From Phoronis australis (Eukaryota; Animalia; Phoronida), in NCBI GenBank assembly GCA_002633005.1, contig NMRA01000016.1, positions 1,248,897 through 1,312,896 of the forward strand: a stretch of DNA of 64,000 bases. Direction: 5' to 3'. Shown here piece by piece: positions 13,509 through 53,405 of this stretch. A program made the translations under genes and the position numbers. Each line of letters opens with the position of its first letter. Position 1 is the first letter of the stretch. The notes beneath the pieces are model-generated. The model did no database searches. It was not told where the DNA came from and was given only the letters and a program-made list of their open reading frames with translations.

Positions 13509-13648
13509 CTACGGAAGCTCCTCGATGAGAACCGAACATCCGCTGTTGTAGCATGTTTGCGCATTGCCTATCAATAGCCCGTAGCACGGCCCAACGCGCA
13601 GCTTGACCTGTATGTAGCCAGACCCACTGATGTAGCATAATCCAGAAA
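13509..13648 (-). CDS. Paralog A exon 6 (SGLCY...IEELP*)
   Basis: cttttacag acceptor; ends IEELP-TAG like the CTHRC1 C-terminus. Confidence 0.9.
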
Positions 13649-16600
13649 CTGTAAAAGAGATTACAATGCACTAATTTATTCTACAGTTCTGCCTTAAGTA
13701 AGGGAATTTTGCCTTAAGTAAGGGCTGGGTTTTGTTGTATTCCATGGGGTAGTGTTGACGGTGGAGGGGTGGTGGTGATGGTCATAACTATGTCGGATAT
13801 GATGGGGCTGGTGATCGTTACAATGATACTGGTGATATTGTTGGTGGTGGTGATGATGATGGTGAGTTTGATTAAAGGGTGATGGTAGCAAAAGTGGAAG
13901 TGTTAGTGCATAGAGATGGTGGTTGTGTTTGGGGTGCTGGTGGTTGTGCAGGTGGAGGTGGTGGTGGTGACGGTGCTGATCGTAGTGGCGAGAGCATGTA
14001 TCTAACACAGAGCCTTTATCGCGTCAAATCTGTAGGCCTAATGTGTCATTAAGAATCATTGTGTAGAGGCAATGGTTTAAACCAAGACCGTATAGGTAGT
14101 ATCATACATTAGCAATCATTGAACTTGGGATGAAACTCAAAACGTGAAATCTCATTTTGAGGACACTCTCCAAGTCAATTGTTAAATCATCAGTCAGGTT
14201 ATTGTGAACAATAACAAATTTAGGTACAAGTTACCTCAATGCCTAGGTCAATCTCACGTCAATGTTTTTTGAAATCAAAACTAAAGTAGAACACCTGCAC
14301 AAAAAGATTTTTGGAACAAAAATACTTACATTGATTACCATTTTGGACAGTTACCGTCTTCGGATTCTGGTACACTATAGTGTCAATTGGGCCGCGATTT
14401 GTGCACTCCTGGTCGTTGAAGGTGAAATACCAACGATTACAGCGAACACCGGCTCCTGCCGAACCATACATGCCAAGGACGCCACTCCACGTGACCCGCA
14501 GCCATGAATAAGTGTTCCTCTTGTAGATTGACATGGACTAAAATGTAATAGTTTTGCTTCAAATGAGGTTGCCGAAAAAGAAAGATCGTCGATCTTAAGA
14601 AACAACCTGCCTCGGTTAAAGTTCGTTTTTTATGCAACAGATGAGTTTCACTTACCATCACTGCCCATGCATCATATTCTTAGTGCACGGCGTCATTATC
14701 AACTTTATGTATCGTCGTCAAAACAGAAATGAAATAAAATATTTTCCCTTCAATTAGTAATGAAATACACCTTATCTCTTCCTGTTGGAATATAGTAAAC
14801 CATTTTTCTTTGTTCTGCCATGTGCCGGCACAAAGCTGTATCTGCATGTACAGTTGGAATACCAGTTTCGTCGAATACAAGTGAACTCATAGACCGAAAA
14901 GAAGAAAGCCACTGACGTAACGGGACTCATGTTTGCCTCGGATTCATGAGGTTTACTACTTTTTCTCGTAGGAATCAATGCTGCCTGGCCTTCTCAAAAA
15001 ATTATTATGTGACAATGACATCAATAAATGGCGTCACGGCTGCAGCGCCTCTTGTACTGCTGTTTCACGTTTTAGCCTGTTACCACATAAGTATCCCGGT
15101 TCATTCAGCAGCGTTTCCCATTTTAAAAGTCACTTGATTAAGCAGTTGTAATTGCTCAGATGTGAAACACATTTTGGTATAATTTGATGGTTCCAGATAT
15201 AACTGAAGATTTCAGGTTACGAGAATACCCGAGGTATCCCGCATGTGCTATTCTATAAGACAAACCTCCGTAACATCTAGGGTATTTTTGTAAATTCAAA
15301 TTTCCTCTAGAAGGTGAACTTGCTTGCACACATGCCCAGTTCAGTCATACGGTCAATCACTCTCCAGTTTGGAAGTAACATGCCTTGCCAAAAGACGGAA
15401 ACCCGCACAGGAGCAATTAACTTTCACATGCGAGAGGGAACTTGAAGGTACAAAAATACCCGAGATGTTCCGAATAAAACTATACTACATGTACATGTAT
15501 ATCCAGTGTGAATGTGTGTGCTGTAAGCGCTGAATGAGCATTGTGATTTTCTTGTGCTATCCATGTGTCTTGTTTCATTGTACAAGAATGGCCAATGCCA
15601 TGACAAGGTTGTTTGGGAGTGCTCTAAAACATCCTCAAACAACGACGCAATTAAGAGAGTCAAATCGGGAAGTTTTAAAGTCAAACACATAAAAGAAAAC
15701 AACGCGACCAAACCAAATCATTGGTAGCCGATCGTGGAACTATTTCCGTGAGAACGATAGCACGCTCACAATTCGCTATTTTAGATCATGTTGTAGCCGC
15801 GCAGCTTTCTGTTTTAAAACACCAGGCGTGCGTTCAGTAACGCTAGGACCTACCCTAGGACTTAACTAAAATCTAGCCAAAGTCACGTGATCTCATTTGA
15901 AATACACGGCAACATCTCACGTAATCTCGCGAAGTCTTGATCTTTAGCGAGGTCCTAGCGTTACTGAACGGGAGGCTGACTTCAGCCAGAGTAGATTCGC
16001 GCGCGGATGAGTCTTATGGGAAGTCATTTAGCGACGTAATAGGATTATGAAATGTGTAAAAGCGCAAAGATACAACCATTGCCACAGGCGTGGGTCGAAT
16101 GCGTCGCGGGTCGAGGGGGTCGTGGGATGTGGGGTCGATGGGTTTTTGAACAAATTTGTTGTTTGTCTTGTGGTACGGAGATTCAAAACTGGAAAAATGG
16201 CTACAGTTTTTCTTCTTACATGCAGGTGTTCAAAGCAGTCCCATCGGCAACTTTTTCTCTTCACGTCGTAGAGTATCCCATTTGATACACGGGGGGTTCG
16301 TATTTATTATATTTCTTTGAAAAAAATACACAAAGTGCCTAGAAGTAAATGTAATATCATTTGTTTATCAAATGATTTTGGCTCGTGTAGGCCAGTATGT
16401 TTCGTATCATGCCGAAATGTTGTAGCTTAAAATCAAAAGTGGGTACCTACAGCAATGACACCATTGTCCACGCCAGACGACCAAGCCCGACTCCAGTAGT
16501 AGTAGTTTCTGTTACTGTAACCACAAAATACAAGTGTTTATTGGATGATTGTAGAAAACTCCGATTCAGAAGGGATGTAGACACTATCTCAAATTGGCAT

Positions 16601-19600
16601 TGTGCTGCTGAACATATTTTCCCCTCATTTGTGTAATTTATTGACAACTTTGTATTAACAATCGTCTGTCTTATCAATCAAAATATGACAACACTGCAGG
16701 ATTCTCGTATTTTTAAAAATTTGACACATTACATAAGAAAAAATATATATAGTATCTGCAAGTCAACTACTTTGTGAGGATTTCGAGACGAGTGTTTATA
16801 AAAACGGACGGTGAATCAGTTGTGTAGCACAAAACAAATCCCGCTTTCCAGTGAAACCATTTATCAAAATTCGATTGCTTTTGATCGATTATTGAAATTA
16901 GCAACTTACCTGAAACGGCCGATCCTATTGTTAAGATCCTGGAATAAATAAAGAGTACTGACTGTCACTATAGATTACAGACAACAGATTCGCAACATTT
17001 TCTTGCGTGCTATCCTAGAGAAGGGGCCATTTTCCTAAAGTACCAATTTCAGTTTCCGGTTACTGTACTGTGACGGGAAATTCTTGGGTCTATTTTACTG
17101 TCCGGTTCTAGGAAAAAAATAATAATTTCTGCATTGAAACGCTGTTCAAAGTCTTCCAGTAATAGAACTGTTGGTATCGTGAATACGTTTGGCACCCGAC
17201 CATACAACAGCCGACCATGATTAGCAGACGACGTTCTTGCCGGATGTAAAACTTGCTAATTTTTCCAAGTGCCGCTAGTGAATAATGACGTCACGGCTTA
17301 TGCGTCGTGTATTGAATATATACGGAGTTGACGGTCCATGTACTATAGCCTATGCTTTCAAAGATAGTTCAACCTTATTGGAGAAGGTCTGAAGACGCAC
17401 TTGAAGATGTGTTCCACAAAAGTAATTTAACCGTTATTTTACTATTCCAAGGCGACTGACATAACAATAAAGGTCCTTTTTAGCGGATACACACACACAC
17501 ACACAAACACACACACACGCGCGCGCACACACACGCACACGCATACATACTTACATACATGCATACATACATACATATAATACTTTGACCCTGACTTATT
17601 ATTGTAAAACCTTTTTTCGTAATAAACATGAAAAAGAATTCTGTAAACTTACGTTCACTCGTTGTTCTAGCTTGTAGATTCTCTCTGAAAAATGGAAATA
17701 AGTAGTTTTATTCATTTTATTTCTAAATATTGTAAAATTCCGTTCATTCATTCTTCCAGCATGTAGATTTCCTCCAAATAATCAGAGACAGAGATAGCCT
17801 TAAAATTTTAGAGTAAACCTCGCTGTTTTCATTTTTGTGCTTCTGTGCACATGCGCCAGCGTTGATTTTGCTGGACAACGTCATGTGGCAGCTGCGATAT
17901 CATGATATCTTCTGGTTCAACAGGATGGTTTCATAAGTTGGAATTTACTAATCGTAAAAGGCAGCCTAGTTCAAAAATTTGTAAATGTATACCAGACTAA
18001 GTAATATGCAACATGGCATAATGTTACCTCCTTTCTGTTATCAAAATAAAAGCCTTTTTGAGGACAATTTCGTACCTAGGCCAAGATCAGAAAATCATCG
18101 ACTATTTCCGTCTAATTCCGTGACCTGAGCTGCTGTGCCTCATCAGCTCAGAAACGATTCCTGAATGGCAGCGGCCATGTCGACCTTGAAAACGTATTGA
18201 TATCCCCGCGGTATGATGGGCCGTTGGGAGGAAAGTGTCGCAGGAAAAACACGAGCGTAATCATGTACATTACGCCGTTATTTACGTCGTTAATTACGCC
18301 GTAAAATTACGAGCGTAATTTTTAAATTACGCTCGTAATTTAGTTTAAACTTTTAGCCAATGACGTTGGGTTTTACAATCCACGGTCGCGCGTTCTCATG
18401 GAAATACTTATGTACTGACGGGTTACATGTCCACGATACGAGCGCTGAATCATGGCGGATCAAATCGCTGCTGCAATGTCAGCGATTGTGCAAGAACGAG
18501 CTGCCTAGCAAGTCGTGTATAGGTCAACACTGATTGGTTTAAATTTGGAACGTTCTTAAAGTATTTTACGAGCGTAATTTACGGCGACATTTCCGCCATT
18601 TAATTTACGAGCGAAATTTTACTGCAGCACTTTTGCAATTTAATTTACGCTCGTTACGAGCGTAGTTTTACGGCGAAACTTTTCCCCGTTTAATTTACGA
18701 GCGACACTTCTGCAATTTAATTTACGCTCGTAATTACGAGCGTAATTTTACGGCGACACTTTCCCCTCAACGGCCCACCATACAGCGAGCGTAAATGCGT
18801 TGTTATTTTGTTTGCTTGATGTTGATTCTCATTTTAGTTCTTAGGAAAAACCTGCTTTAAAACATGACAAAAACTTACAATACATATCTCTGTTGTCTAC
18901 ATATGAAAATCCGTATACGGAGGTGTAGTGAATTGTAGTCAATGAGCTGAATGTCATCGATGGTAAAATATTGCAGTGTTAGGAGCATTGTGCAGTATTT
19001 TTCAATCTGTTCGTTACACGGATTTCACTCATTCAAGGCCCAGACAGCTAATAAATGTGCTCATCTTCCGTCGCGGAACAGATGTCCGCGGGCTCTACTT
19101 ATACGAATGCTTTTGGCTGAGGGGTCATTCCTTTTACGTTAAACTCATTAATACCTATATTATATACCATTTGGCACCATGGCGAGTTTTCTTTCTGAAG
19201 TTATTTTTGTCNAACAGATGTCCGCGCAGGTCAGGCGGTCGGGCTCTGCTTATACGAATGCTTTTGGCTGAGGGGTCATTCCTTTTACGTTAAACTCATT
19301 AATAGCTATATTATATACCATTTGGCACCATGGCGAGTTTTCTTTCTGAAGTTATTTTTGTCGTTCATTCTTGGTCGTCAGCCGCCCGGCTGTAATGGAA
19401 GTCGCGGAAGACCAGCAGTATAGTAAATGTAGTTTCCGTCTAAGCTTTTTTCGATATTTTCACATATTTAATCGTCAGGATATTCTAACTGTAAAGAAGT
19501 TTTATTCAATTATTTTGATATTTCATGTTTGTTGGTATGTCCATACTGTTTGTTTACCAGATTTAATTACACCCAGTAAAACACACTTAGCCTACTAGTC

Positions 19601-20764
19601 TGCCATAGTCGACCTTGTTATTCAATCGCTGCTAGTCCGTAATGTCTGAAACTATCTTTCTATCTTTGAATGTATACAGCATTTATGATTTGAAGCATTC
19701 ATTCGGATAAAGCCGCCTTCGACGGCATGCCTTCGCATTTCGCTTGTCCGCTCTGTCCGCACCGGGTCATGCGCGGTAGATCCGAGTCCGGCAAATAATT
19801 TCTGTTAAAATTTATTTTTTCCTCATTTTGTCAACAATTTCAATAAAAATTATCCCTGTTTTGGTTTTATTAAAGCTAAGGTCCCCTGCCCATTATTTTA
19901 TCCTTGTTTAGAGGTCAGTAACAGACAGTCTCACAGCTGGCGTTCTTACGCATGGGTCCCTGAATGAATTATACTTACGGTATTGCGTTTAGTTCAAAAC
20001 GGCGGTGTGTTATTCGGGTCGGATTCTTGAGCGGCGAGTTTATTCAAACTTTCTTCGACTAGCAATTGTGCATTGGTTATGGAATCGGTACTGCTTGATT
20101 CCATATAACTTTTTCTAACTATTTGATAAGGGTTAAAAACCTGTACTACTAGGACTTCAACGTCTCAACATTTACATCATCGTAAAGTATATAAACGTTG
20201 CAGTTCAACGTGAATGGCATTACCTTTCCGTTTTGACAGCAAATTTAACCTTTATCTTACAAAAACATATACACACTAATTTACATTACACCGGAAGATG
20301 GGTTATTATATCGAGTAAAAAGTTTAATCTCATAGATTTTTAAAATTATCAAATAATAGCCAAGATGTGAAGAAATTCACTGTTCTCACCACACCGCATT
20401 TACTATCTACTTCAGTAAATAGGGTTTGTGTTAATTCACGTTTTCGGCCTAATAAGACACAAATGACGTAATATTTTTATTTCAACTGCTTATTATTCCT
20501 GTCGTAATGAAGCCGGAAGTGAACATTTTCTCAACAGTTATTTTCTGTCGCGTCTAATGGCGGCCATTCACACATGATAAATATCATAAATAATTAAAGA
20601 AGGACATAACTGTTGCTGTAACAGATTTTTTCTTGTATTCAAAATGACATAAATATCAAAAACTAACCTCCAGTTCCGCAACAACAATCGGCGTTGGCGA
20701 ACTTGGAATCCACAATCAGGAGTGCGAGAACTACCGCACTAAGAAGTTTAAACCAACAACCCAT
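13509..20764 (-). CDS. CTHRC1-like: Secreted CTHRC1-C-terminal-domain protein without collagen repeat, paralog A (6 coding exons, 189 aa)
   Basis: Exons 20764-20668, 17684-17653, 16938-16910, 16514-16451, 14537-14330, 13648-13509. All introns are GT-AG, phases 1,0,2,0,1 are consistent, and the 570 nt are open to TAG. Protein: [189 protein letters not shown]. The motifs LRVxxSG, CxRWYFTFNxxEC, PIxxIxY, GLC and IEELP match the CTHRC1 C-terminal domain. Confidence 0.9.
13755..13990. repeat. (GGT/GAT)n low-complexity repeat in intron 5; counterparts at 27895-28200 and 49150-49385
   Basis: Degenerate trinucleotide runs at the same intron position in all paralogs. Confidence 0.85.
14330..14537 (-). 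CDS. Paralog A exon 5 (core of CTHRC1 C-domain)
   Basis: cattttag acceptor, GTAAGT donor; contains LRVTWSG...[13 protein letters not shown]...PIDTIVY (ORF 14259..14534). Confidence 0.92.
15195..15490. mobile_element. Inverted-repeat (MITE/foldback-like) element in intron 4; homolog at ~29365-29690 in B, absent in C
   Basis: aacatctagggtatttttgtaaattcaaatttcctct (~15272) is the inverse of agagggaacttgaaggtacaaaaatacccgagatgtt (~15433). Confidence 0.55.
15823..15978. mobile_element. MITE with 21-bp perfect TIR core, bounded by CAG/CTG (Harbinger-like); partial second copy ~26849-26975
   Basis: cgttcagtaacgctaggacct ... aggtcctagcgttactgaacg; empty site ccaccagacttc in C (~50198). Confidence 0.75.
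16451..16514 (-). CDS. Paralog A exon 4 ([21 protein letters not shown])
   Basis: ttacag acceptor, GTAGGT donor; aligns with the start of the CTHRC1 C-domain (G-x-D-x-G-x-I-A). Confidence 0.85.
16910..16938 (-). CDS. Paralog A exon 3 (29-nt micro-exon, DLNNRIGRF(S))
   Basis: ttattccag acceptor, GTAAGT donor; phase 0 to 2 fits its neighbours. Confidence 0.85.
17489..17578. repeat. (AC)n/(ATAC)n microsatellite, intron 2 of A
   Basis: Direct observation. Confidence 0.9.
17653..17684 (-). CDS. Paralog A exon 2 (32-nt micro-exon, (E)[10 protein letters not shown])
   Basis: tttttcag acceptor, GTAAGT donor; encodes the same peptide in all three paralogs. Confidence 0.85.
18211..18783. mobile_element. 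MITE with ~31-bp TIRs and internal ttacgagcgtaa arrays, nested in an older interspersed repeat
   Basis: gtatgatgggccgttgggaggaaagtgtcgc / gcgacactttcccctcaacggcccaccatac; GCG on both flanks; the uninterrupted host repeat occurs inverted at ~36790-36916. Confidence 0.8.
19077..19362. repeat. ~135/150-bp tandem duplication joined at N (19212), likely an assembly overlap
   Basis: 19077-19211 vs 19213-19362. Confidence 0.8.
20668..20764 (-). CDS. Paralog A exon 1: signal peptide + CCC
   Basis: gccaaaATGG start context; [32 protein letters not shown]; donor GTTAGT. Confidence 0.85.
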
Positions 20765-20804
20765 TTTGGCAAAGGATGATGGAATAATTCGAACAAAACT
20801 ACCA

Positions 20805-21000
20805 CAATCTTTTTATACATTGGCTGTGCATTCCGTGCCCTATAAAATAAATATCATATTGTATGAAATGCGTTGCTCCAATAAAAACTTCTTCAGCTCT
20901 TTGCCGATGTTGATGATTGGTCGATGGTGATTTGCGATATACGCCTCCTTGTTGAAAAGTTGAGTACACCGCTCACCTCATAAGTCACCGCCTCATATGT
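20805..21000 (-). promoter_or_regulatory. Proximal promoter of paralog A (TATA and CCAAT boxes)
   Basis: TATAAAAA on the minus strand at ~20810-20817, about 46 nt upstream of the ATG; CCAAT at 20916-20920; block conserved in B and C. Confidence 0.6.
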
Positions 21001-23099
21001 CACTTGTACTAGTCACATTCATTAACACGAACCTGGTATGCTTGAACAAATCTTACTTTTTCCGCATAAATGTGTTTGCTGCTAAAGCTGCTAGTAATGT
21101 CCTGGTAAAGCACCGCTGTTACTTCTAGACTGTTAATTCTAGGGTTACTACGAGGAGTACGGCACTAAGCAAACTCTTAGACAAAAAATCTAGGTGTCTA
21201 TTTTGCATTCTCATAATCTCACAGTTTTGCAAGAGACAGAAGTTAGCAAAAATGACACCGTTGGTTGCACAGAAGACTCACTTAGCCTTTGGGTTCTCCC
21301 CTGGTGTCCATTTCTTCCCAAGTTCAAATCGACCAATTTCCATTGCAAAAACAGAGAAACACTACTTTTAATTGTCCTGCACCTTGGCGCTTTGTTAACG
21401 CTTTTTATCCACCAATGTACATGTACCACTTTATATTCAGTTTAAACTGTGCTGAAGATTTTATCTTTTAGATACGCAAGATGCTGCCACATTAAGAAAA
21501 ATGCACGTTATCTAATTATTCGTTTTTCGTGACTTTGCTTTCACCTTAACACTCCTTCAGCAGTGAGACTAATAAATCACAAATGTCAACATTAACGGCC
21601 TATCTGAGGTAAACGCTCTGATAACAACACAAATTTTAACAATAAATGATACAGTTTGTGACTATGTCGACGCGCATCAATGCCAATTCGACAGTAAACA
21701 CGTGTCACGTGACTTCAAAAAACAACCTTTTCCTCGCTGGTAATCTTCGTGCTGCTAGGTGGTCGGTAGCCAGCACGCAGGTATCACATAATTTTCCTCG
21801 GGATTTTCTGATTGGCTAATCGAATTCTCAACAGGCAGCGCTTTACGCAGACAAACTGGCATGGCTGATGGACTGAAGCGTAAATGTGGTCTGTTGATGC
21901 TCAGGAAATGTGAATCTTAGAAAATGGTGGTTGCGTCTTTTCGGAGAGCATCTTTCTACTGTCGATGACTTTTGTTTACGATACTGTCCTGTAGTCATAC
22001 AGTATGAATAACACACCGGTTAAATCGGCCAGATATGTGTTTATTGTACATGTACGTGCTTCAAGCACGCGGGTATTAAACATCAATGTAGAAACGAAAT
22101 AGTTGCTGCGACGCCTCTTGCATGACAAGGCTAAAACTCGTTCGCAGTCCGCTAATTTTTACGTTGTTGTAAAGCTATCCAAGGACTGCTGAGGTTACAT
22201 CAACCAATGCTAAAGCGCGTGCCTCTGCGTGATACCTGCATACTGGTTAGGTACGTAGGGAACCAGAGAGGACCTTTTCCAGCGTTTTGTCTAGTAATAT
22301 GAAGTGCCAAACGGTTCTTAAACGAGTATCTTTCTGTGCGTTGAAATATGCTTAGCCAACGCGTAGTTTTGTTTAAACAGCGCGCTGACTGGAATTAGTT
22401 ATTCGTTTAGTATTACCGGTAGTTATGTCCAAGCAAAGACAAGCTTACATTCAGGACATAACTGTAGCATCATTTACGTAGTCACTTGTATTGATAAGAA
22501 CCTGCAACATTCGTGAAAAGTTGCCTTGCACCCATGTAGATTGCACGGGCGTGATTGGGCAATATATAGGCAAGAGTGCGCGCTGATTAAACTACGTTTT
22601 GATTAATCAAAAGTGCGCGTTGAATAAGAGCATAACAATGTCCGTTTAAGACCTAAATTCAGTGCCTTGATTAAGCAAAACCATGCCATGATTAACCACA
22701 TAACCCTTTGGGGATTCATAAATAATATCAAGTGGCAAGATGAGAGATGATTTTGTCACAGCGAAACTCATAACGTGTCACCAAACAGGTGCGGATAATC
22801 GTATCCTAATTATGACAGCATGCCGGGAAGCGGCAGTCATAACGCCTGTAAAACCGCGGTCTTACCGGTGCAAAGTATGCAAATTTTCAGTTTATACATC
22901 GACGTAGAATTCAAAGACCTTTGTCTACTTTGTCCACATACTGGATAAACAGCCGGGAAATCAATACGTTCCTTTCAACCGTTCCTTAAAAAATCCCGGT
23001 TTCAACGTGTTGTTTCAACTGAGAGTTCACTCTCCCTTGAACAGTAGGGGTCACAGTTTGGGAGAGATGGCTCGCCCTAATCATTTTCTGTACCTTCAC

Positions 23100-27688: not shown

Positions 27689-30600
27689 CTACAACAGCTC
27701 CTTAATGGTAATCGAACATCCGCTGTTGTAGCATGTTTGCGCTTTGCCTATCGGTAGTCCGGTGCACGGCCCAATGTGCAACTTGACCTGTATGTCACCA
27801 GACGAACGTATGTAGCATGTACCAGAAACTGAAAAAAATTGCAGTGGCATTTTCATTTCAATAATTTGTTGCGTGACTCTGGCATACTTTAAGACTGGGT
27901 GGTGACGGTTTTCATGGTGGCACTGCTGAAGGCGGAGGTGGTATTGGTGATGGAGAATCTGGTGGTGGTAGCGATGATGATGGTTATGGTGGTAGTTCTG
28001 ATGAGGGAGGTGACGATGGTATTGGGCTGGTGATATTGATTACGATGGTGGTGATACGGAGGTAATGTTGATGGTGACTTTGATTGGTGGTGGCGGTGGT
28101 GGCGGTACTGATGTTGGTGGAGGTGGTGGCGGTAGAGATGGTGGTGGTTGTGGTGGTGGTGGTTGCAGTGTTGGTGACGATACTCATCCTAGTGGCAAGG
28201 GGGAGCATCAAATTTGTAACGTACCATTAAGATTCATTGTACAGCGACAAAAGCTTTAATTAAATAAGACCGCAGGTCGTATTATACATTGGCAATTATT
28301 TAAACTTGGCGTGGATGAAACTGATGAGGTGTAATTCAATTTTATAGGCGCTCTCAATGTCTATTTTTAAGACTTCAGTGAGCTTATTAAAGAACAATGG
28401 CCAATTTAGCAACGAGCTACTGCAATACTTGGTTTATTCGTAGGTTATTGTCTCTTGAGCTCAAAAACTAATAAGCTAACACCTCGAGAAAATTGTTTTA
28501 AAAATGTACTTACATTGATTACCACGTTGGACAGTTATCGTCCCAGGATTTTGGTACACTATCGTGTCAATTTCACTATCTATGCATTGTTGATTGTTGA
28601 GGGTGAAGTACCAACGGTTACAGCGAGCGGCGGCTCCTGCCTGACCAAGCATGCCAAGAATGCCACTCCACGTGACATGCAGCGATGAATAAGGGTTCGT
28701 CTTGAAGAAAGTCGTGTTTTAAATGCAGAGGTTGCGGAAAAGGAAAGCACTCCGAGATAATGAAGTAGCTTGTATGAGTGATAGATTTTATTACTTGTAA
28801 GACTTGTTTTGTAAAACAACTTAGTTGACTTGCCTTTGCTGCACATGTGTCCTACTCTTCGTGCCCATTATCATTATCATTTTTCTGCATCGTCGCCAAG
28901 ACACAGTTTGAATCAAACATCTTTCCAAAACGTTGGTTTGCAAGATCACTTGTTTTCTTTTAGTTGTTAATGAAAATAATACAATTATTGGAGTGTATTA
29001 CATCGTTTTGCTTGCTCTCCCGTCTGCCTCCAAGAAGCTGCATCTCGTTGTGTAGAACGAGAATACAAGACAGTTTCGTGGAAGGTGGACTCCACAGACC
29101 GAGTAGAAGAAATTCGCTGGCGTAATGGCAATTACCGTTTCCTTCGGGTTCGCCAAGCACGCTTTTCCCATAAGAAACAATGCTGCCATTCATTCTCGAA
29201 AAACTGTAATGTGATGATCCCATCTTGAAATAATGTCATAGTTGTATGGCCTCTTAATTTACTGTTATTTTACGTTTTATCCTATTATCACAGAGCGTTC
29301 AACGACATTCAACGGCGTTCTCCATTTTTACAGTCACATGAATTGATTTTTCGTAACAGCACGGATATGAAACACCTCCGAGGGGTAATTTGAGAGTTAC
29401 GTAGGTAGATTTGAGGTTATGAAAATACTCGAGGCGTTACGGTTGTGCTATGCTATATTTTACTCATCCAGAACACTTAAGGGTTTTCCGTAACTTCAAA
29501 GTTCCTCTTGGAGGTGAAAGTTATTGCGCACATAGGCATATCGTCAAGTGTCCAATCACTGTTCTGTTTGAAAGTCACAGGACTTGTCATGAGACAGATG
29601 CCCTCACAGGTGCAAATAATTTTCACCTCCGAGAGGAAATTTGAAGCTACGAAAATACCCGAGGTGTTCTGAATGATGCTATACTTTGTTCATTCTGAAC
29701 TCCTGGGGTGTTTGCAGCCTCAAACTGTTCTTCATGCGAGAACATTATCCGTGCAGGTTCAAACTTTCGTTAGTCACATGTCATGTCACGAGTGTGGCTG
29801 TTAAACAAGAGAATGATTGGTCGTACGACTAAAGACGGCATACACGCAGATAACGTTCCTCGGTGAGGAAAATTTCCTGCTGCAAAAATGTCTGAAGTTT
29901 TGAAAATATACGTCATTAAACTGATCTCAACTTGTTTCTTACTCAAATTAGAAATGATGTCTGGCCATGCATGATTGGAGTTCATTATGAATTTTTGTGC
30001 TTTTGTGTTAATTTAGTTCTCGAATTAGACTTTGGCGCGGACTGTGATTTTCTTCTGTTTTCCATGGGTCTTGCATTGTTGCACAACAGTCCATGCCATG
30101 AAGAAGTGGACTGTCTTGTGGTACCGAGATTGAAAACCTCAAAAATATGTTTGCTTTGTTGCGTCTTACGCTTCGGTGCTCAAAGCAAACTCGGCAAGTT
30201 TTGTCTTCCTAAAACCTCTTTGACGTGGTAATCTACTGGCATCATTTTAAAAATCTTTTGGTCTATTTACACCAACTTCTAGCCTTGGTGTATAAAGACC
30301 CAAAGATTTTAGAAATAATGTTCGGCAAGTTTTCTTATTACGTCAAAGAGGTACCCATTCGTTATAGCGTGTATATTATAGATTTTTTCTTTACCAAAGA
30401 ATAACTGTAATGCATTTTTGGTCTTTGTTCGTGTGGACCAGTATATTTCGTACAATGTCAATATGTTCTTTTCCAAAAACAGAAATAGATAAGACCTACC
30501 AGAATTACACCGTTGTCCACGCCAGACGACCAAGCCCGGTTCCAATAGTAGGAGCGAACGTTACTGTAACCACGAAATAAAAGTGTGTGGGTTCATTAAA

Positions 30601-33600
30601 CGCAGGTCCAGAAAAATAATAGATACGATCTCAATTGGCTATTGCGCTGCTGAACACATCTCCTCTTTAGTTGGTTAATTTACTGGCAACACCGTATTGC
30701 AAACTCTTCTCGTCTCCAACAAAATATGACTCTACAGTAGTTTTCTGATTTTCCGAATATTTGGAAAAAGTATATTTTGCAAGTTCAACTGGAGAAAAAA
30801 TGGACTTCTATGAGAGAATATCAAGACAACTGTTTTATAAGCAGAACTACAATGGTCAACGTAAATCCTGCGTCCCAGTGAAGGAATTTATGAGGACTCG
30901 TTTACATTTGAATGTGAACATATACTGCAAACCCACTTTGAATTGCTGATCCTCTTGTTCAGGTCCTGGAACAGACGAACACTGCTGACTATTACAGGTA
31001 CAGTACTTTTATTGGAGCTCTGAAGATGCATTTGAAAATGTAATTGGCAAATCTAAATTGTTGTTTACTATTACAAAACGATAGCCATCACAAGCACAGC
31101 CATTTTACCAGATCATTTTGTTTGACATAAAACCTATCAAGAAGTTTCTCACGTCCAACTTTCCCTTTAATTTGGTCCGATTTTCAAGATCTCCGTCGAG
31201 AATGTGAGAGTCGGTCGATCACTCTAAAACGTTAACTGACTCGTTCCTCAGGCACCTGCTTGGTCCTCTGGTTGTAAGATGTTTTACCATTTTTTCAGCA
31301 GCCTAAGAAATGTCGTAAGCACACCTTTGTTTAGATGCGGTGCAAAATCAGGATGGTCCGTGAGACACATCTGCTCTTCTCCAAGTAGGCGTTTCACTTG
31401 CGGAATATCGTGCTAGCAAACGCAAGCGTCAGTCGTTTCCATTATCGTGACACCATGGCAAGTCATTCAAACGGTTTTCGGAACTATACATGTGTGGCAT
31501 TGTCTGTGCACGTTCTCAGAGCCTCTCTAGTATGTATTCCGGTTTGAACTGATAGTCTGTGAAACCCAACGATCGACCTGTGAAGTCTTCGTCGGATGAG
31601 CACTCGTCTAACTCGGGGTTGCGAGTTGCCATGTTAACGTTTATTTTTGTGCGTTCTGTTTCAAAATGAATTATTCTCACCCTAACCAATGCTTATATAA
31701 AACTGAAACAAAATCTGCCTCATTAGATACAACTTGTAATGCTTTGGAGTGCTCGTGAGTGCAAATGTGTTGAGGAGTCAGAAATGAATAAACCACTGCG
31801 TTACCGGCATATGCAATAAACTAATTGACCTAGCACCGAGGCCGTGTTAGCGCATGCTAATTCAGTGTTTGCTGACAGAAAGCTGTTGTGAAACAATAAT
31901 CCGATTTTATATCCAATGGTTTGATGTTACGGGTATCTTTTTTAGATATTCATGAACATTTTTCTAATCATTGTTACTGTAAAACTTTTGACCTGACGGT
32001 TCTGTTGAAGGGTAACCTGACTTCGCGGCCCCCGACGACCTAGTATGTAGATTTGCAGTTTCTCGGCTAATTCACAAAAACAATCACGTGCATATTATTT
32101 ATTTGGCTCATTAGTATAGCGTTTTTGTGACTGGAAGTTTAGCTTCCAACTTTGATTGGCTTATGTTCGTGATGTCTTCAGCCCGACCGCGATGGGCCTG
32201 ATCGGGTTCCGAGCCTCTGGCTGGGATAGCAATCGTTCTGTGTGTTTAGAACTGAAAAAAACCACAAGTCTAAAATTACAATACACAGCTATGTTCTCCT
32301 GACTGTATTTCACGGACCAATAATTCGAATTTATCACCGAAAAGACCCCAAACTTCTTCGACCGACCTTAGTAAATTGGCCTACCGAACTCTGTAAGCTA
32401 CGGTACGTTCAAATACTTAGAACAACACACGAAATAAAACAACTCGTTTGTTATATAACTCGATGTATTTGTAAGGGTTTTACATCGAATTCTGGTGATT
32501 TATTGGTGCAAAACGATGAATTCAAGCGAAAAGCTGACACCAGTTATTGTGTTGTGAACTGGTGAACAGACTGGGTTCGAACCTCTGACGTCAATGGTTA
32601 ATTTCAACACCTCCGAGTGCTGTAAGGTGTCAGGTAACACAGCTTTACTTACTGTTATCGAGTGGAACTACTCGATCTAAATTGATACCAAATGGGCTGT
32701 TTTGAGGTTGCATTCTCATTTAATGGAATCTGAAAGTTCAAAAGAATTCCGCATTTCGTCAGCGGTAGTAGATGAAGCGGTCACGGACTGGGAAGACTTG
32801 TTTACACTCTTCTCTAATCTATATTAGTATTGATGTCTATGTATCAGAAAAAATGGGAATGCGACGCATGTATCAGTCGCAGCAATTGAGAGAGAATTGA
32901 AATTCAAGGGTTTTGTAAACTTACGTTCACTCGTTGTTCCAGCTTGTAGATTCTCTCTGAAAATGGACATGGAAAGTCTTACTTTTAAATACTGTAAACT
33001 TACGCACACTCCTTGCTCTAATTTGTAAATTCTTCAAATAATCCTTAAAGGTGTTAGAGTGTTGTCTTGGCGACACAACGATATGTGACATTTGTGATGT
33101 CACGATATTCTGCGGTTCACCAGGATCGTCTCATAAGCAGTAATTCATGTTAAAGTCCTCATATTTGTTAAAACGTCAGTTACATAGACGCTGTTGTAGT
33201 TCAACGATAATGGCCTTACCTGTCCGTTTTGAAGTCAAATTTAACCTTTATTTCACGTACATAGAATACATCACGTTTTAACGGACGACGAGTTATTATA
33301 TGCAGGAAAAAGTTTATTTTCAGAGACTACATTATCCAATAAGACTCAAATGAAGACCTTTCCATGTGATTTCATGATTCATGCGATTTTAATTTCAACT
33401 GCTTTTTATTCCTGTCATAATGAAGCCGGCAGTTTTTTTCTGTCACGTCTTGCGGCCGAGTCTTCGGATATGATAATTATTATCACATAATAATTATTAT
33501 CAATAATTAAAGAAGCTAATAATTGATACACTTGCGCTACTTGCTGGCATTCAAAATGACATAGATATCAAGGACTAACCTCCAGTTCCACAACAACAAT

Positions 33601-33679
33601 CGGAGCTGCTGGCGAACTTTGAATCCCCAACCAGGAGTGCGAGAACTACCACACTAAGAAGTTTTAACCAACAACCCAT
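27689..33679 (-). CDS. CTHRC1-like: CTHRC1-C-domain protein paralog B (divergent; exon-5 acceptor mutated, possibly a cryptic-acceptor variant or incipient pseudogene)
   Basis: Exons 33679-33580 (MGCWLKLLSVVVLALLVGDSKFASSSDCCCGTG), 32956-32925, 30965-30937 (DLNKRISNS), 30563-30500 ([21 protein letters not shown]), 28718 or 28700 to 28514 (...[59 protein letters not shown]), 27828-27689 ([45 protein letters not shown]). There are no stops or frameshifts within the exons, but the orthologous exon-5 acceptor reads AA instead of AG. Confidence 0.78.
28514..28718 (-). CDS. Paralog B exon 5 (core of CTHRC1 C-domain)
   Basis: Open frame with CNRWYFTLNNQQC; GTAAGT donor at 28513; acceptor uncertain. 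Confidence 0.8.
31290..31632 (-). pseudogene. Decayed P2X7-ballast/Nanor-like Cys-rich domain ORF, likely a transposon accessory gene (Kolobok KolX-like), in intron 2 of B
   Basis: MATRNPELDECSSDEDF...YQFKPEY...RLNDLPWC /frameshift/ METTDACVC*HDIPQV...CLTDHPDF...LNKGVL resembles the Y-x-F-E-P-E, R-L-x4-W-C, E-C-x-C-C, C-I-T-x-H-P-x-F pattern; stops and a frameshift. Confidence 0.6.
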
Positions 33680-44840: not shown

Positions 44841-46559
44841 CAAGGAGTGTAGTAGTAAAGGAGAGTTCAGTTGTGAGTTCGCTGTTACCGCTAATACCAG
44901 CGCCGTCAAGTGGTGACTAAGCAACTGTCAACCAGGAAGCGCCAAAACAATGGGGAAGGACGCATTTTGCAGTGCGATGAATTGCATGAATTCATCCACG
45001 AAAACCCCAGACGTGTCATTTTTTTAGGTTTCCTAAGGATCGAGAAAGGTAAGGATTATCTGTTATTGGCTTTCATTTTGTGTGTTCTGTTCACGGTTGT
45101 TAGACCAGTCGATCGCAGTCCCGTTGCCACTGTTGTCTGCCGTGTAGGCTAGGCCTACTGTACAGCCGGGCTGCCGGCGGAAGGACTATGATGAACGTAC
45201 GATGTGATCGTCAGCTTTTTGGATACTTGCAGTCCATGAATTCCAAATCAAAATGCCATCCGTACGATCGCAGGGATAATTTTAGGAAAACATACCCATG
45301 CCCATGGCCATGGGTAATATGACTGGTGACACGGCCATGGCACAATCACAGCCACAGGGCCACAAGTCTGTCGTGAGTCAAGTTAGGGAATCTGTGGGTC
45401 TCGGTGAAAAGGTGAAAAAATCAACATAAGTTTAATGTGCCAGTTGGACCAATTAAGTTAAGCAGTGCGTTATTCAAAACTTAATTCTATGTGCCAATGA
45501 TGCGGGGGCGCGGCCCTGATAAAATGTCCGTGGATCAATATTTGAGTCCGAGTTTTTTTCAGTTGAAACCAAAACGCTATTGTCTCTATCACAATCACAG
45601 TACGACAGGAATTCTGTAGTGTAGTGTACTTTAGTGTAGGCTACCAGTCTTCTGTGAGCCTAGTGAGTATGAGGTTTGTTCCTGAGTCTCTCAGTCATTG
45701 ATTTCTGTTCAGGTGCAAGCGCTGGGAGCTGACCTTATGAATAGAGATGCAGCCTATTTGTCCAAGAACTGCAAGTTATGCTCTCATCACTTCGAGGACT
45801 CCATGTTCATGAGTGAAGAACAAGCTGGTATTGACTGCAGTGCCCGAACAATATTTGATGTCCCGAATCCACCAAAAATGAAGATGTCAGGGTCAAAAAG
45901 TTCATCGGAAATTATATTACAGCTCTGGAATAGGCTTTTTGCATTTCTGATTATCGTCTCACAAAGCAAGTACAGTGGAAGATCACGAGTAGAAAGGACA
46001 ATTAATCAAAATCTGGTTTTCGCATTTTATTAAGGTTGATCAGATTGAAACATTTTATGAACGGTTCGCCTGTGATTTGGAGAGAGCCAAAGTGAAACTG
46101 ATGGATCATTCAGAGTCTGAGTGGTGGGCTGAAATTTTGTTAAACCCAAGCTGTCCGTATCATTTGCTTCAAGATGACAAACACCTCTGTGAGTAAATTA
46201 GTTTTCAGCTTTATTTATAACGCACTTCTTTGGCGAAAAGTGCTGTTGTTTGCTAGTGAATTAATAGAGAGTGACAAGGTTGGTCAGATTTTTTTGTTGT
46301 ATTGGTTGGTGTATGTGTTGCCTATTTTGTACGTTTTTGGAAATTGTGATTAATTTAAGCCCCAGTTGTGGCTAGATGTATCAGATATGATCTTGTGGTC
46401 TGGCTTTAACTTACCTGAAATATTTACTGTTATTGATAATAGGAACAGTGGGTATATAAAATAAAATTTTGGTTTTATCATCCTAGTGTTTCGACCGGTA
46501 ACCATTATGGCGAATGGTAAAATGGCGGAGTGAACTCTCCTGTACTAGTACACTCCTTA
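44841..46559 (+). mobile_element. Non-autonomous THAP-containing DNA transposon (P-element-like) with ~31-bp TIRs and 7-bp TSD
   Basis: TIR caaggagtgtagtagtaaaggagagttcagt / agtgaactctcctgtactagtacactcctta; TSD gtataat at 44834-44840 and 46560-46566; internal spliced THAP relic. Confidence 0.8.
44950..45885 (+). pseudogene. Two-exon THAP zinc-finger domain relic
   Basis: Exon 44950-45048 reads MGKDAFCSAMNCMNSSTKTPDVSFF(+1 T)RFPKDRE|GTAAGG. The exon from 45713 (ttcag|) reads CKRW...LCSHHFEDSMF...AVP-like TIFDVPNPPK. This is the C2CH THAP signature with frameshifts. Confidence 0.8.
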
Positions 46560-48924: not shown

Positions 48925-51501
48925 CTACGGAAGCTCCTCGATGAGAACCGAACATCCGCTGTTGTAGCATGTTTGCGCATTGCCTATCAGGAGCCCGGAG
49001 CACGCCCCAACGCGCAGCTGGACCTGTATGTTGCCAGACCCACTGACGTAGCATAATCCAGAAACTGTAAAAGAGATTGCAATGCACTAATGTATTCCAC
49101 AGTTCTGCCTTAAGTAAGAGCTGGGTTTGTTGTATTTCATGGGGGTAGTGCTGACGGTGGAGGGGTGGTGGTAATGGTGATGATTATGGTGGTCATTTTG
49201 GTCGTGTAAGTGGTGATTGGCCTGGTGATCGTTACAATAATACTGGTGATATTGGTGGTGGTGATGATGGTGAGTTTGATTAAAGGGTGGTGGTAGCAAA
49301 AGTGGAAGTGTTAAGGTTAGAAATGGTGGTGGTTGTGGTGCTGGTGGTTGTGCAGGTGGAGGTGGTGGTGGTGACGGTACTGATCGTAGTGGCGAGAGCA
49401 TGTATCTAACACAGAGCCTTTATCGCGTCAAATCTGTGGGCCTAAAATGTCATTAAGAATCATTGTGTAGAGACAATGGCTTAAGCCAAGACCGTATAGG
49501 TAGTATCGTACATTAGCAATCATTGAAACTTGCCAAGAAACTCAAAAGGTGAAATTTCATTTTGAGGATACTCTCCAAGTCAATTGTTAAATCGTCAGTA
49601 AGGTTATTATGAACAATGAGAAATTTAGGTACAAGATACATGTATCTCAATGCCTAGGTCAATCTCATGTCACTGTCTTTTGAAATCAAAACTAAAGTAG
49701 AACACCTCTACAAAAGGGTTTTTGGAACAGAAATACTTACATTGATTACCACGTTGGACAGTTACCGTCTTCGGATTCTGGTACACTATGGTGTCAATTG
49801 GGCCGCGATTTGTGCACTCCTGGCCGTTGAAGGTGAAATACCAACGATTACAGCGAACGCCGGCTCCTGCCGAACCATACATGCCAAGGACGCCACTCCA
49901 CGTGACCCGCAGCCAGGTATAAGAGTTCCTCTTGTAGATTGACATGGACTAAAATGTAATAGTTTTTCTTCAAATAAGGTTGCCGAAAAAGAAAGATCGT
50001 CAATCTGCCTCAGTTAAAGTTCATATTCACTTACCATCGCTGCCCATGCATCATATTCTTAGTGCACGGCGTCATTATCAACTTCATGTATCGTCTCCAA
50101 GACAGAAATTGAATGAAATATCTTCCCTTCAATTATTAATGAAATACACGTTATCTCTTTCTGTAGATCATGTTGTGACGCAACTTTCTGTTTTAAACCA
50201 CCAGACTTCACCCAGAGCAGATTCAAGTGCAGATAAGTCTGCTGGGAAGTCATTCAGCGACGTGATATGATTATGAAAGGTGTAAAATCGTAAAGATACA
50301 TCTATTGCCACAGGCGTGGGTCGTATGGGTCGTTGGATGTGGGTGTTGTGGGATGTGGGGGTCGAGGGGTTTTAGAACAATCCCGTTGTTTGTCTTGTGG
50401 TACGGAGATTCAAACCTGGAAACAATGGTCTCGTCGGCAACTTTTCTCTTCACGTCGTAGAGGTTCCCATTTAAAATACGGGGGGTTCGTATTTATTATA
50501 CTTTTTCTTGATAAAATTACACAAACTGCCTAGGACTAAATGTAATGTCATTTTCATTAGATGACTTTGGCTCGTGTAAACCAGGATTTTTCGTTTCATG
50601 CCAGAATGTTGAAGCCTAAAACCAAGAGTAGACACCTACCGCAATGACACCATTGTCCACGCCAGACGACCAAGCCCGGTTCCAGTAGTAGTAGCGTCTG
50701 TTACTGTAATCACGAAATACAGGTGTATGGATGATTGTAGAAAACTCCGATTCAGAAGGGATGTAGACACTCAAATTGGGATTGTGCTGCTGAATATATT
50801 CCCCCTCGTTTATGTAATTTGTTGATAACACTGTATTAACAATCGTATGTCGTCTCAATCAAAATATGGCAACACGGCAGGATCCTCGTTTTATTGAAAA
50901 TTTGACACGATACATAAGAAAAAGCTATATAGTATCTGTAAGTCAAATAGTATGAGATGATTTCAAGACGACTGTTTTATAAAAACGGGCAGTGGATCAG
51001 TTGTGTAGCACAAAATAAATCTCTCTTTCCAGTGAAACCATTTATCAAAATTTTGATCGATTGTTGAAATTAACAACTTACCTGAGCTGGCTGATCCTAT
51101 TGTTAAGTTCCTGGAATAGATAAACAGCACTGACTATCACACATAGATTTATTTAATTGAAGAAGGTATGAAGATGTATCAGACAAATTTAAATCAACCG
51201 TTATTTATTATTCCAAGACGACTGGCATAAGAAAGGCCATTTTCAGCGGATCGTTTTGTTTGCAATAAAACTTATCAAGATCTTTACCACGTGTTTCACT
51301 TCCAAAGTCCTGCTAATCTTGATACTTTAAAACAATATCTTCCATATATATTAAAAGTGATAGGTGTAAATTTATAACGGTAATCTTGTATATATCATTG
51401 ACATTATTGCTGCGTTTCGATATGTATGTTTATTGTACCTGTAAATATGTACATTCACCTGTATTAACTGATATATATATATATATATATATATCTTTAT
51501 C

Positions 51502-51538
<37 letters not shown>

Positions 51539-53405
51539 ATGCATATGTATATGTATGTATGTATGTATGTATGTATATATATTTGTCTGAGTATCTTATT
51601 ATTTTTACTCTCAGATACAAGACTTTCTGGCGCTTTGTACATTGCATTTTTGTAATAAACATTAAAAAGGGTTTCATAAACTTACGTTCACCCGTTGTTC
51701 CAGCTTGTAGATTCTCTCTGAAAATGGACATGAGCAGTTTTATTTATTTTATTCTTAAGTATTGTAAACTTACGTTCACTCGTTGTTCCAGCTTGTAGAT
51801 TCCCTCCGAATAATTGACACAGATAGTCTTTCAGTTTTAGATTAAACTTCCTTGTTTTTGTTTTTGTTTTTGTTTTTGCTTTTGTGTATTTTTGCGTACA
51901 TGCCAGTGTTGATTTTCCCAAGCAACCTCATGTGGCAGCTGCGATATCATGATATTTTGTGGTCCAACAAAGTGGTTTCTTAAGCACGAATTTATGTTAA
52001 ATATAGTATGTCTCATTACAACCGTGAATATTTAAATTTGTAGCAAACGCCACCTAGTGACTTCCTGGAGAGCTGTGTGTACAAGTATAATCGGCAAAAA
52101 AAAACAATTTGTGAATAAATTGCGGGATTTTAAAGAAAACACCGCAACTGACAAACTCAATAACAAATGTGAAGATATAAATATCCTAGCAATCCTAAAT
52201 ATTACGCAATCGTTATTTACAAATAATAAAAAACTGTTCCTTGTTTCATTATGGTAGCCATGAAATATTACCATACTCATTTACATAAAAATAGTCTCGC
52301 AAAACGACTTTTTCATGTAACTGGTGACTGGTCTTCTGATGGTTTCCAACACAATAATACTTCATTTGAATTCGTGTGTTCAGGAAACTATGGATCTTTA
52401 ACGTCTCCACATTTACATCAGCGTCAGTTATATAAACATTGTAGTTCTACATGAATGGTTATGAACATTCTTAGGATAAATCAGTTCTGTTAATAGCCAT
52501 GTGACAGATTCTGGTCACGAGATGGATTTTGACAACGTTAGAATTTTATATCACGATGCATGTAAATTTCGTCTGTTTGTAAGAGAAAATTTTAAAATTA
52601 TAGAACAAAACCTCAGCTCAGTAGAATGTAGTCGCCCTATGACATCCGCCTATTCACATAGTCTCTGTTATTTTCCCGCCATCTGTTTTGCACGTTGTGC
52701 GTATTCATTCTCTTGAAAATACAGCTCAGTGAAACGTCGAGTACTTGTCATGAAGATAGAATTTTATAAAACTTTGATCGTCGATTTTATCCTAACGTGA
52801 ATGGTATTACCTTTCCGTTCTGATCTCAAATTTAACTTACAGAAAACGTGCGCCGATTATTTAACATTATACCAGAAGGCAGGTTATTATATCGTGTAAA
52901 AAGGTTAATTTCATAGAATTGGTTATCAAATAATAACTTTAGGAATAAATGCAAAATAAAACCCTTGTCTTGTTCACACCTTATACCATTGCCATCTTCT
53001 CAAAGCAAATAGGGTTTCGGTTATTTTAAGTTGTAGCCTAATGAGACACAAACGATGCTATATTTCCATATAATTTCGTCATTCATCCGATTATAATTTC
53101 AACTGCATTTTATTCCTTGCATAATGAGGCCACCATTGAACGTTTTCTCAACAGTTATTCTCTGGCACGTTTAGTGGGGAAGATCATAAAGACCTTGGAT
53201 ATGCGTCACACATAATAATTATCGTTAATAATTATAGAAGTTCATAATTACTACAGTAACGGACATTTGTGTGTATTCAATATGACAAAGATATCAACGA
53301 CTAACCTCCAACTCCGCAGCAACAACCTTCGGCGTTGGCGAATTTTGAATCCACAATCAGCAGTGCGAGAACGACCGCACTAAAAAGTTTAAACCAACAA
53401 CCCAT
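48925..53405 (-). CDS. CTHRC1-like: CTHRC1-C-domain protein paralog C (6 exons, 190 aa)
   Basis: Exons 53405-53306 ([33 protein letters not shown]), 51717-51686, 51110-51082 (ELNNRISQL), 50703-50640 ([21 protein letters not shown]), 49948-49741, 49064-48925 ([45 protein letters not shown]). All introns are GT-AG and the 573 nt are open. Confidence 0.9.
49741..49948 (-). CDS. Paralog C exon 5 (core of CTHRC1 C-domain)
   Basis: ORF 49670..49945 with [13 protein letters not shown]; splice sites as in paralog A. Confidence 0.92.
51470..51582. repeat. (TA)n/(TATG)n microsatellite, intron 2 of C
   Basis: Direct observation. Confidence 0.9.
52462..52790 (+). mobile_element. 3' fragment of a Penelope-like (GIY-YIG) retroelement in intron 1 of C
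   Basis: [34 protein letters not shown] resembles the C-terminal GIY-YIG segment (H...GH.IDF.N..IL......RL..E...I); tail cttgaaaa...gaaacgtcg; flanked by ac(a/g)tgaatggt duplication; empty site in A (~20208). Confidence 0.65.

What the first reader, a model, noticed from the sequence alone, without database searches (positions are those of the whole stretch)
13509..53405. Tandem family of collagen-less CTHRC1-like secreted proteins in which a micro-exon-encoded coiled coil replaces the collagen helix
Seen: three 6-exon genes splice (B with an uncertain exon-5 acceptor) into signal peptide + CCC + ~20-aa heptad segment + CTHRC1 C-domain, with no Gly-X-Y anywhere. Established: canonical CTHRC1 is a secreted, injury-associated matrix protein with a short collagen repeat in front of this domain. 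Inference: this lineage swapped the collagen oligomeriser for an alpha-helical one and amplified the gene. This would give a distinct family of small multivalent secreted proteins that ORF-based annotation misses because exons 2-4 are only 29-64 nt. I cannot verify whether this architecture is already described.
Basis: partly seen in the sequence, partly recalled or inferred. Interest (0 to 1): 0.85.

Follow-up and report, generated by a model that had tools for sequence, protein, structure and literature searches.

The report
Collagen-less CTHRC1 with coiled-coil stalk
Three neighbouring genes of an invertebrate, two of them very abundantly transcribed, encode the head domain of the matrix protein CTHRC1 behind a short predicted coiled coil instead of the usual collagen helix, likely giving three-chain secreted binding proteins built like the immune lectins of molluscs, a layout also present but undescribed in tubeworms and a lamp shell.

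Summary
Confirmed. Three minus-strand six-exon genes (A, B, C) encode a signal peptide, CCC, a three-heptad segment on 32- and 29-nt exons and a CTHRC1_C domain, with no Gly-X-Y run. RNA reads support all five junctions of A, and the family makes up 0.15-0.42% of reads in three runs. C and a fourth paralog outside the window are expressed. B has lost its exon-5 acceptor and is silent in these runs. The stalk opens with an R-h-x-x-h-E trimer motif. A tubeworm relative with the same layout is modelled as a TNF/C1q-like head on a helix and as a homotrimer; the window proteins themselves could not be folded. The layout is not private to this lineage: 18 of 26 siboglinid relatives and two Lingula proteins also have a heptad stalk without collagen. 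Leclère 2020 only footnotes collagen-less forms. It mirrors the known collagen-to-coil swap in spiralian C1q, FReD and C-type lectin proteins. Most likely an abundant multivalent recognition protein; no ligand is shown. The scan had no earlier CTHRC1 finding, but it has a parallel case with spongin-type heads. New variant of a known family.

The parts
20668..20764 (-). Gene A exon 1: ATG, predicted signal peptide (about 25 aa), CCC motif
   Evidence: joint 17684/20668 in 1793, 2210 and 186 reads
17653..17684 (-). Gene A exon 2 (32 nt): first heptads, carries the RIYKLE trimer motif
16910..16938 (-). Gene A exon 3 (29 nt): rest of the heptad stalk
   Evidence: joints 16937/17652 (1234, 1753, 180 reads) and 16514/16910 (1266, 1558, 151 reads)
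16451..16514 (-). Gene A exon 4 (64 nt): first strand of the CTHRC1 head; ends at the conserved phase-0 intron
14330..14537 (-). Gene A exon 5: core of CTHRC1_C
   Evidence: Pfam PF25815 E 3e-10; joints
13509..13648 (-). Gene A exon 6 coding part to the stop; end of CTHRC1_C with an extra Cys pair
   Evidence: Pfam E 1e-5; joint 13648/14330 in 3499, 3377 and 1615 reads, paralog reads included
33580..33679 (-). Gene B exon 1
   Evidence: reads laid here carry non-B letters
32925..32956 (-). Gene B exon 2
30937..30965 (-). Gene B exon 3, weak donor, no RNA cover
   Evidence: bin depth 0, 0.61, 0
30500..30563 (-). Gene B exon 4
28514..28718 (-). Gene B exon 5; orthologous acceptor reads AA, in-frame AG would start the exon at 28700
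27689..27828 (-). Gene B exon 6 coding part
53306..53405 (-). Gene C exon 1
   Evidence: C-specific letters in reads (table 5c)
51686..51717 (-). Gene C exon 2
51082..51110 (-). Gene C exon 3
   Evidence: its letters stand between the joints of 2434 reads in X6 (table 5c)
50640..50703 (-). Gene C exon 4
49741..49948 (-). Gene C exon 5
   Evidence: Pfam E 4e-11
48925..49064 (-). Gene C exon 6 coding part
51774..51805 (-). Extra copy of exon 2 in intron 1 of C, part of an 88-bp tandem duplication; its orthologous acceptor is lost
33002..33033 (-). Decayed copy of exon 2 in intron 1 of B

Best explanation
These are tandem paralogs of the CTHRC1 family, highly expressed in the case of A and C, that encode a CTHRC1 head domain behind a three-heptad segment instead of collagen, and they likely form secreted trimers that work as abundant multivalent recognition (lectin- or agglutinin-like) proteins. 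Shown: gene structure, splicing, abundance, domain identity, no collagen. Inferred steps: the signal peptide is cleaved just before CCC; the heptads, opened by an R-h-x-x-h-E motif, zip three chains in parallel and so do the job of the collagen helix; the heads pack as a TNF/C1q-type trimer; the free N-terminal cysteines link chains and possibly join trimers into larger bouquets; the clustered heads bind a repeated ligand, most likely a glycan or microbial surface, in mucus or body fluid. B is likely a recently disabled or condition-restricted copy.
For: Splicing and strand. Abundance: 38,286 of 12.75 M, 47,180 of 11.31 M and 16,831 of 11.05 M records laid on the A stretch at 90% likeness, paralogs and a few repeat reads included. 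Stalk: hydrophobic period 3.43-3.46, p 0.0004-0.0018 against 10,000 shuffles; the motif as defined in PMC3653964 (passages) arises in 1.8% of shuffles; exon 2 is unchanged in protein in all three genes although B differs by dN 0.19 overall. Fold, on tubeworm relative P0050: helix 44-77 plus beta-sandwich, mean pLDDT 80.9; best matches are the TNF-like lectin PLTL (Z 11.9, rmsd 2.5, 122 aligned), Pgp3 (11.6), BclA (9.6), EDA (9.2), collagen VIII NC1 (8.4) and C1q (8.2). Trimer of P0050 40-222: score 0.92, best control 0.02, runs agree in at least 96% of contacts, pLDDT at least 87, contacts in both stalk and head; the mark was reached by 21 of 30 solved microbial pairs and 0 of 23 single chains, on eukaryotes by 17 of 29 (animals 7 of 16) and 0 of 30. 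Precedent: coiled coils stand in for collagen in bivalve C1q proteins and spiralian FReDs and C-type lectins (PMC6835236, PMC9835746, passages). Tandem expansion with dN/dS 0.41-0.63 fits a recognition family.
Against: No ligand, tissue or challenge data. Fold and trimer come from a stand-in in another species whose stalk does not align with this one; the trimer job held three copies whereas the calibration held two, and the pass may reflect memory of solved TNF/C1q trimers. The R-h-x-x-h-E motif also occurs in some dimers, and three heptads is short. A shared fold shows no function: the top matches are 7-12% identical and include non-lectins. The repertoire seen is about four genes, small against the hundreds of bivalve C1q genes. 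No dN/dS above 1. High abundance fits a structural secretion equally well.
Confidence: 0.5

Rival explanations
1. Same trimeric architecture, but the product is a bulk structural component of a secreted matrix (mucus, tube, cuticle or egg coat), cross-linked through the CCC cysteines.
For: 0.15-0.42% of reads; three N-terminal cysteines with no partner in the head, whose six cysteines pair up; the other coil-type families found are in tube- or burrow-living animals; BclA and collagen VIII NC1 share the fold.
Against: The stalk of about 21 residues (roughly 3 nm) is too short for a fibre; no low-complexity or adhesive region; I found no proteomic report of such proteins in tube or shell in the passages read.
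Confidence: 0.3
2. It keeps the vertebrate-type role as a Wnt/PCP or TGF-beta/BMP modulator, with the coil a neutral substitute for collagen.
For: Same domain and the same two intron positions as canonical Cthrc1; Leclère et al. propose a conserved signalling role across metazoans.
Against: Abundance is far above what signalling cofactors usually reach (own knowledge); the head sits on a long branch (1.67 changes per column) and has lost residues kept in most relatives: the first Cys pair, G207 (92 of 114) and R213 (92 of 114) in P0050 numbering.
Confidence: 0.12
3. The heptads form a dimer or pack on the head, and oligomerisation rests on the head and on CCC disulfides alone.
For: Stalk-less secreted CTHRC1 heads exist in Actinia, Xenia, Montipora and Corticium gene models, so a stalk may be dispensable; Ile/Val at a and Leu at d also fits dimers (own knowledge).
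Against: Trimer motif and strict conservation of exon 2; modelled three-fold contacts along the stalk of a relative.
Confidence: 0.08

Closest known systems
Cthrc1 family (Pfam PF25815 CTHRC1_C; Leclère et al. 2020, PMC7058181)
   Same: Signal peptide, C-terminal CTHRC1_C domain, both intron positions inside the domain, tandem lineage-specific expansion.
   Different: No CTHR (Gly-X-Y) domain, which the paper uses to define the gene; heptad stalk and CCC instead; first Cys pair of the head lost and another pair gained.
Unnamed coil-type CTHRC1_C proteins of Lamellibrachia satsuma and Ridgeia piscesae (e.g. KAI0214612.1) and Lingula anatina (XP_013399633.1 and its paralog P0153)
   Same: Signal peptide, Cys-containing N-terminus, predicted helical heptad stalk, one CTHRC1_C domain, no collagen, several paralogs.
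   Different: Stalks are longer (modelled helices of 34-35 aa against about 21), show no sequence match to the window stalk, and heads are only about 32-37% identical; one origin or several is unresolved.
sC1q-like type II proteins of bivalves, and FReDC2 / CTLDC2 of spiralians (PMC6835236, PMC9835746)
   Same: Secreted, coiled coil in place of collagen ahead of a globular head, tandem expansion; for C1q also a related jelly-roll fold.
   Different: The head is CTHRC1_C, with no Pfam match to C1q, FBG or C-type lectin; no binding or complement activity shown here.
TNF-like trimeric lectins PLTL (PDB 9ib6) and BC2L-C N-terminal domain (PDB 2wq4, 6tid)
   Same: Best or near-best fold matches to the modelled head of a relative.
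   Different: Bacterial, 5-12% identity; the sugar site was not compared.

Membership tests
Cthrc1 (sensu Leclère 2020) | CTHRC1 C-terminal domain | tested here: met
   PF25815 above cut-off for exon 5 of A, B, C; 88-116 bits for the spliced proteins against an HMM built from relatives
Cthrc1 (sensu Leclère 2020) | Collagen triple helix repeat before the domain | tested here: not met
   No Gly-X-Y run in six frames of the introns or exons 1-4; RNA joints leave no room for one
Cthrc1 (sensu Leclère 2020) | N-terminal signal peptide | tested here: inconclusive
   Hydrophobic core, best 9-residue mean 3.3-3.6; SignalP not available, secretion not shown
Cthrc1 (sensu Leclère 2020) | Conserved intron at the 5' part of the C-domain | tested here: met
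   39 of 76 listed read-through ORFs of relatives break at the position of the exon 4/5 boundary and 15 at the exon 5/6 boundary; paper text
Cthrc1 (sensu Leclère 2020) | Trimer formation | tested here: inconclusive
   Predicted only for relative P0050; motif evidence in the window proteins
C1q-like type II (C1qDC with coiled coil) | Globular C1q domain by sequence | tested here: not met
   Exons 5 and 6 match only PF25815 at E up to 1
C1q-like type II (C1qDC with coiled coil) | Coiled coil between signal peptide and head | tested here: met
   Heptad periodicity p below 0.002 in all three; a prediction, no COILS run
C1q-like type II (C1qDC with coiled coil) | TNF/C1q jelly-roll fold | tested here: inconclusive
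   Met for the model of a relative (Z 8-12); window proteins not folded
C1q-like type II (C1qDC with coiled coil) | Binding of microbial patterns or glycans | not testable with these tools
   Needs binding assays

The most novel reading that the evidence does not exclude
The CTHRC1 head is a TNF-fold lectin or pattern-recognition module, and animals deploy it in the same four formats as C1q (collagen stalk, coiled-coil stalk, stalk-less, multi-head). These genes would then be the major effectors of an overlooked fourth defence-collagen-like family, with a stalk newly built from two small exons, and a collagen-free handle on the unknown ligand of the vertebrate CTHRC1 domain.
Probability: 0.3. 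Interest if true: 0.72.

Novelty: new variant of a known kind. Interest (0 to 1): 0.46.

Why it matters
CTHRC1 is studied almost only as a vertebrate fibrosis and cancer protein, and its head domain has no solved structure among the sequences searched and no agreed ligand. A small, collagen-free, naturally abundant version should be easy to express and assay. It also extends the collagen-to-coiled-coil exchange, known for C1q, FReDs and C-type lectins in spiralians, to a fourth head type, and shows a stalk encoded by two constitutive small exons.

Tried and rejected
No whole genome is held for the window, so further paralogs and canonical Cthrc1 genes of this species could not be counted. Word-indexed search with exon 5 of C among longer proteins: 10 candidates, none significant. 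The Atlas does not hold the exon-5 peptide; with Lingula P0153 it returned CTHRC1_C clusters and, under 0.9 and so as leads only, a rotifer cluster, Pgp3 and BC2L-C. No solved structure matches a CTHRC1 profile (one chance row, E 0.049). The domain tree does not place the window clade: an AU test rejects neither one clade of all coil types (p 0.48) nor window plus Lingula (p 0.575), 28 rows, quick tree; the careful 48-row tree did not finish and the quick one was read. Short BLAST of the window stalks against the fetched proteins found nothing at E 1. Exon-3 skipping: rejected for the rows shown, because the apparent skips carry paralog exon-3 letters (table 5c). A and C as uncollapsed alleles: rejected, flanks are about 80% identical with different intron lengths and A-type, two C-type and a fourth type of read occur in one run. 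The fourth type as an allele of B: rejected, its exons 3-6 differ from B. No RNA holder was listed in the index; the raw runs added by species label gave the evidence. The host taxon was not determined. Literature searches that found no description of a coiled-coil CTHRC1: (listings only; the library lacks most subscription journals).
Full report
Observation. The window is animal-like DNA (about 39% G+C) with blocks repeated at 65-80% identity that define three units. Each holds a minus-strand gene of six exons. Genes A (20764-13509) and C (53405-48925) have five GT-AG introns each and give open frames of 189 and 190 aa. The proteins read as a hydrophobic leader of about 25 aa, three adjacent cysteines, a short Gly linker, 21 heptad residues, and the head. 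Exon 5 of all three genes passes the Pfam cut-off for CTHRC1_C and exon 6 of A matches the end of the profile. No run of four or more Gly-X-Y units lies in any frame between exon 1 and exon 6, apart from one four-unit pattern inside the head.

RNA. Three raw RNA runs of the same species label and one contig set were laid on A and on B. The joints match all five introns of A, with 143 to 3499 reads per joint and run, and the first mates lie almost wholly on the plus strand, as expected for a minus-strand transcript in most stranded libraries. Reads laid on the A stretch at 90% likeness are 3002, 4172 and 1524 per million; this counts paralogs and a minority of intron-repeat reads. Letters between joints identify C (two versions of exon 1) and a fourth paralog that is not in the window. 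None of the inserts shown is longer than 28 letters, so no collagen exon hides there (12 rows shown of 239; 15 joints of 78). Gene B is different: its exon-5 acceptor reads AA where A and C have AG, its exon 3 has no cover, and at diagnostic sites nearly all reads carry other letters (5071 of 5073, 6452 of 6457 and 2120 of 2122 at 30545). B has no stop or frameshift, keeps all cysteines and shows dN/dS about 0.6 against A and C, so it diverged under some constraint and is silent here or restricted to other tissues. The tissue of the runs is not given.

The stalk. The 21 residues from exons 2-4 have their strongest hydrophobic period at 3.43-3.46, with p 0.0004-0.0018 against shuffles; this test does not separate a coiled coil from another amphipathic helix. 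Each heptad starts with Arg, and the first reads RIYKLE, which fits the trimer motif Arg(g)-h(a)-x-x-h(d)-Glu(e) as defined in PMC3653964 (passages read), a paper that also notes the motif in some dimers. It appears in 1.8% of 100,000 shuffles. Exon 2 is identical in protein in A, B and C. Extra copies of exon 2 sit in intron 1 of C and, decayed, of B, both without the orthologous acceptor; a 32-nt exon cannot be doubled in frame, which would explain why they were disabled (inference).

The head. The exon 4/5 and 5/6 boundaries fall where read-through ORFs of other animals break (39 and 15 of 76 listed rows), the first being the intron Leclère et al. describe as conserved. The genes therefore descend from an ordinary animal Cthrc1-type gene. 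The head is strongly diverged: stem length 1.67 in a 48-row tree, about 32-42% identity to the best-scoring relatives, loss of the first Cys pair and gain of a pair near the C-terminus. That pair occurs in 6 of 114 other domains, always as both cysteines, which suggests a disulfide.

Relatives. A full HMMER scan with exon 5 of C gave 127 hits, none close (best 61% on a part). Among them are collagen-bearing forms, stalk-less secreted forms (Actinia, Xenia, Montipora, Corticium models), multi-head forms (Lingula, Oscarella) and coil-bearing forms. A search with the tubeworm protein P0050 returned 26 proteins, 25 named from Lamellibrachia satsuma or Ridgeia piscesae. In a set of 26 such proteins none had more than three Gly-X-Y units before the head and 18 passed a crude heptad score of my own; five gave no parsable stalk. 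Lingula has two more. These are gene predictions that I did not check against RNA. The stalks do not align with the window stalk, but the domain tree cannot reject a single origin (p 0.48).

Structure, by proxy. The spliced window proteins could not be folded. AlphaFold models of P0050 and P0153 show a long helix (44-77; 29-63) before a beta-sandwich. The P0050 head matches trimeric TNF/C1q-type domains, led by the lectin PLTL (Z 11.9), Pgp3, BclA and EDA, in line with the C1q-like fold proposed in 2020. Three copies of P0050 40-222 scored 0.92 against a best control of 0.02, with contacts along stalk and head; runs agreed in at least 96% of contacts, pLDDT at least 87; the mark was reached by 21 of 30 solved microbial pairs and 0 of 23 single chains, and on eukaryotes by 17 of 29 and 0 of 30. 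The calibration was for two copies, and likeness to solved trimers may drive the pass.

How it likely works. Signal peptide, cysteine knot, oligomerising stalk and trimeric head are the anatomy of C1q, ficolins and collectins (own knowledge). In spiralians the collagen of such proteins is commonly replaced by a coiled coil (PMC6835236, PMC9835746, passages). With the very high abundance, tandem copies and relaxed constraint, I favour a soluble multivalent recognition protein (0.5) over a cross-linked matrix component (0.3) or a signalling cofactor (0.12). No step beyond transcription is shown.

What is known. Leclère et al. 2020 (PMC7058181; I read parts 2, 3 and 5 of 8 of the text, term passages, and parts 1, 94, 95, 98 and 99 of 99 of the supplement plus searches in it) define Cthrc1 as collagen plus C-domain. 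The main text has no occurrence of 'coiled' and names collagen-less domains only in choanoflagellates, dinoflagellates and bacteria; a footnote to Table S3 notes further collagen-less predicted proteins in Lingula and Phoronis without describing them. Five motifs of the window proteins were not found in the supplement text (alignment gaps can hide them). The L. satsuma genome paper has no occurrence of 'collagen' or 'cthrc1' in its main text (supplements not seen). Eight searches found no description of a coiled-coil CTHRC1 (listings only). The host is unidentified; loss of the first Cys pair is shared with Phoronis and several Lingula sequences in that paper's alignments, a lead only.

Verdict. 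Real, transcribed, abundant, and undescribed as an architecture as far as I could search, but one of at least three such groups in public predictions and an instance of a familiar exchange. New variant of a known kind; interest 0.46.

Noticed in passing
reads of X6-X8 laid on window 13300-21100 and 27400-34000: A fourth paralog, not in the window, gives the most numerous junction type at exons 1-3 in X7; it keeps the canonical His-Arg before the exon 5/6 boundary that A, B and C lack. Block repeats near 58000-62200 suggest a further unit may start near the right end.
   Followed up: partly
P0017 (Logan, 525 aa): RING and TRAF zinc fingers, coiled coil and a hydrophobic segment fused to a CTHRC1_C domain: a TRAF-like membrane protein with a CTHRC1 head, or an assembly chimera.
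   Followed up: no
P0138, P0139, P0142, P0150 (siboglinid set): The N-terminus carries a C-S-Y-T-F motif before the coil that I recall from angiopoietin-type proteins (recalled, not tested); the stalk may have been borrowed by domain shuffling.
   Followed up: no
P0001, P0002, P0003, P0005, P0006, P0007, P0009: Proteins with two to four tandem CTHRC1_C domains (Oscarella, Lingula, unnamed); three heads in one chain would be a single-chain trimer like multi-C1q proteins.
   Followed up: partly
P0008 (1671 aa): Folate receptor family repeats with two CTHRC1_C domains and a His-rich stretch.
   Followed up: no
window 6083-7700, 19089-19362 and 35337-39674: Near-identical direct duplications (96-99.6%) on both sides of single N letters at 6891, 19212 and 37506: probably contig-join artefacts.
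   Followed up: no
window 15649-16170 and 31500-32700: Intronic stretches with RNA cover on both strands, consistent with dispersed repeats.
   Followed up: no
window 8863-9315, 43492-43872, 45686-46033, 62919-63750: Short ORFs that look like decayed mobile-element fragments (reverse transcriptase-, transposase- and THAP-like by eye, not searched).
   Followed up: no
Atlas cluster rank 4 for P0153: Unnamed 213-aa rotifer cluster, score 0.85, no Pfam: a lead for diverged CTHRC1-like heads in a group reported to lack Cthrc1.
   Followed up: no
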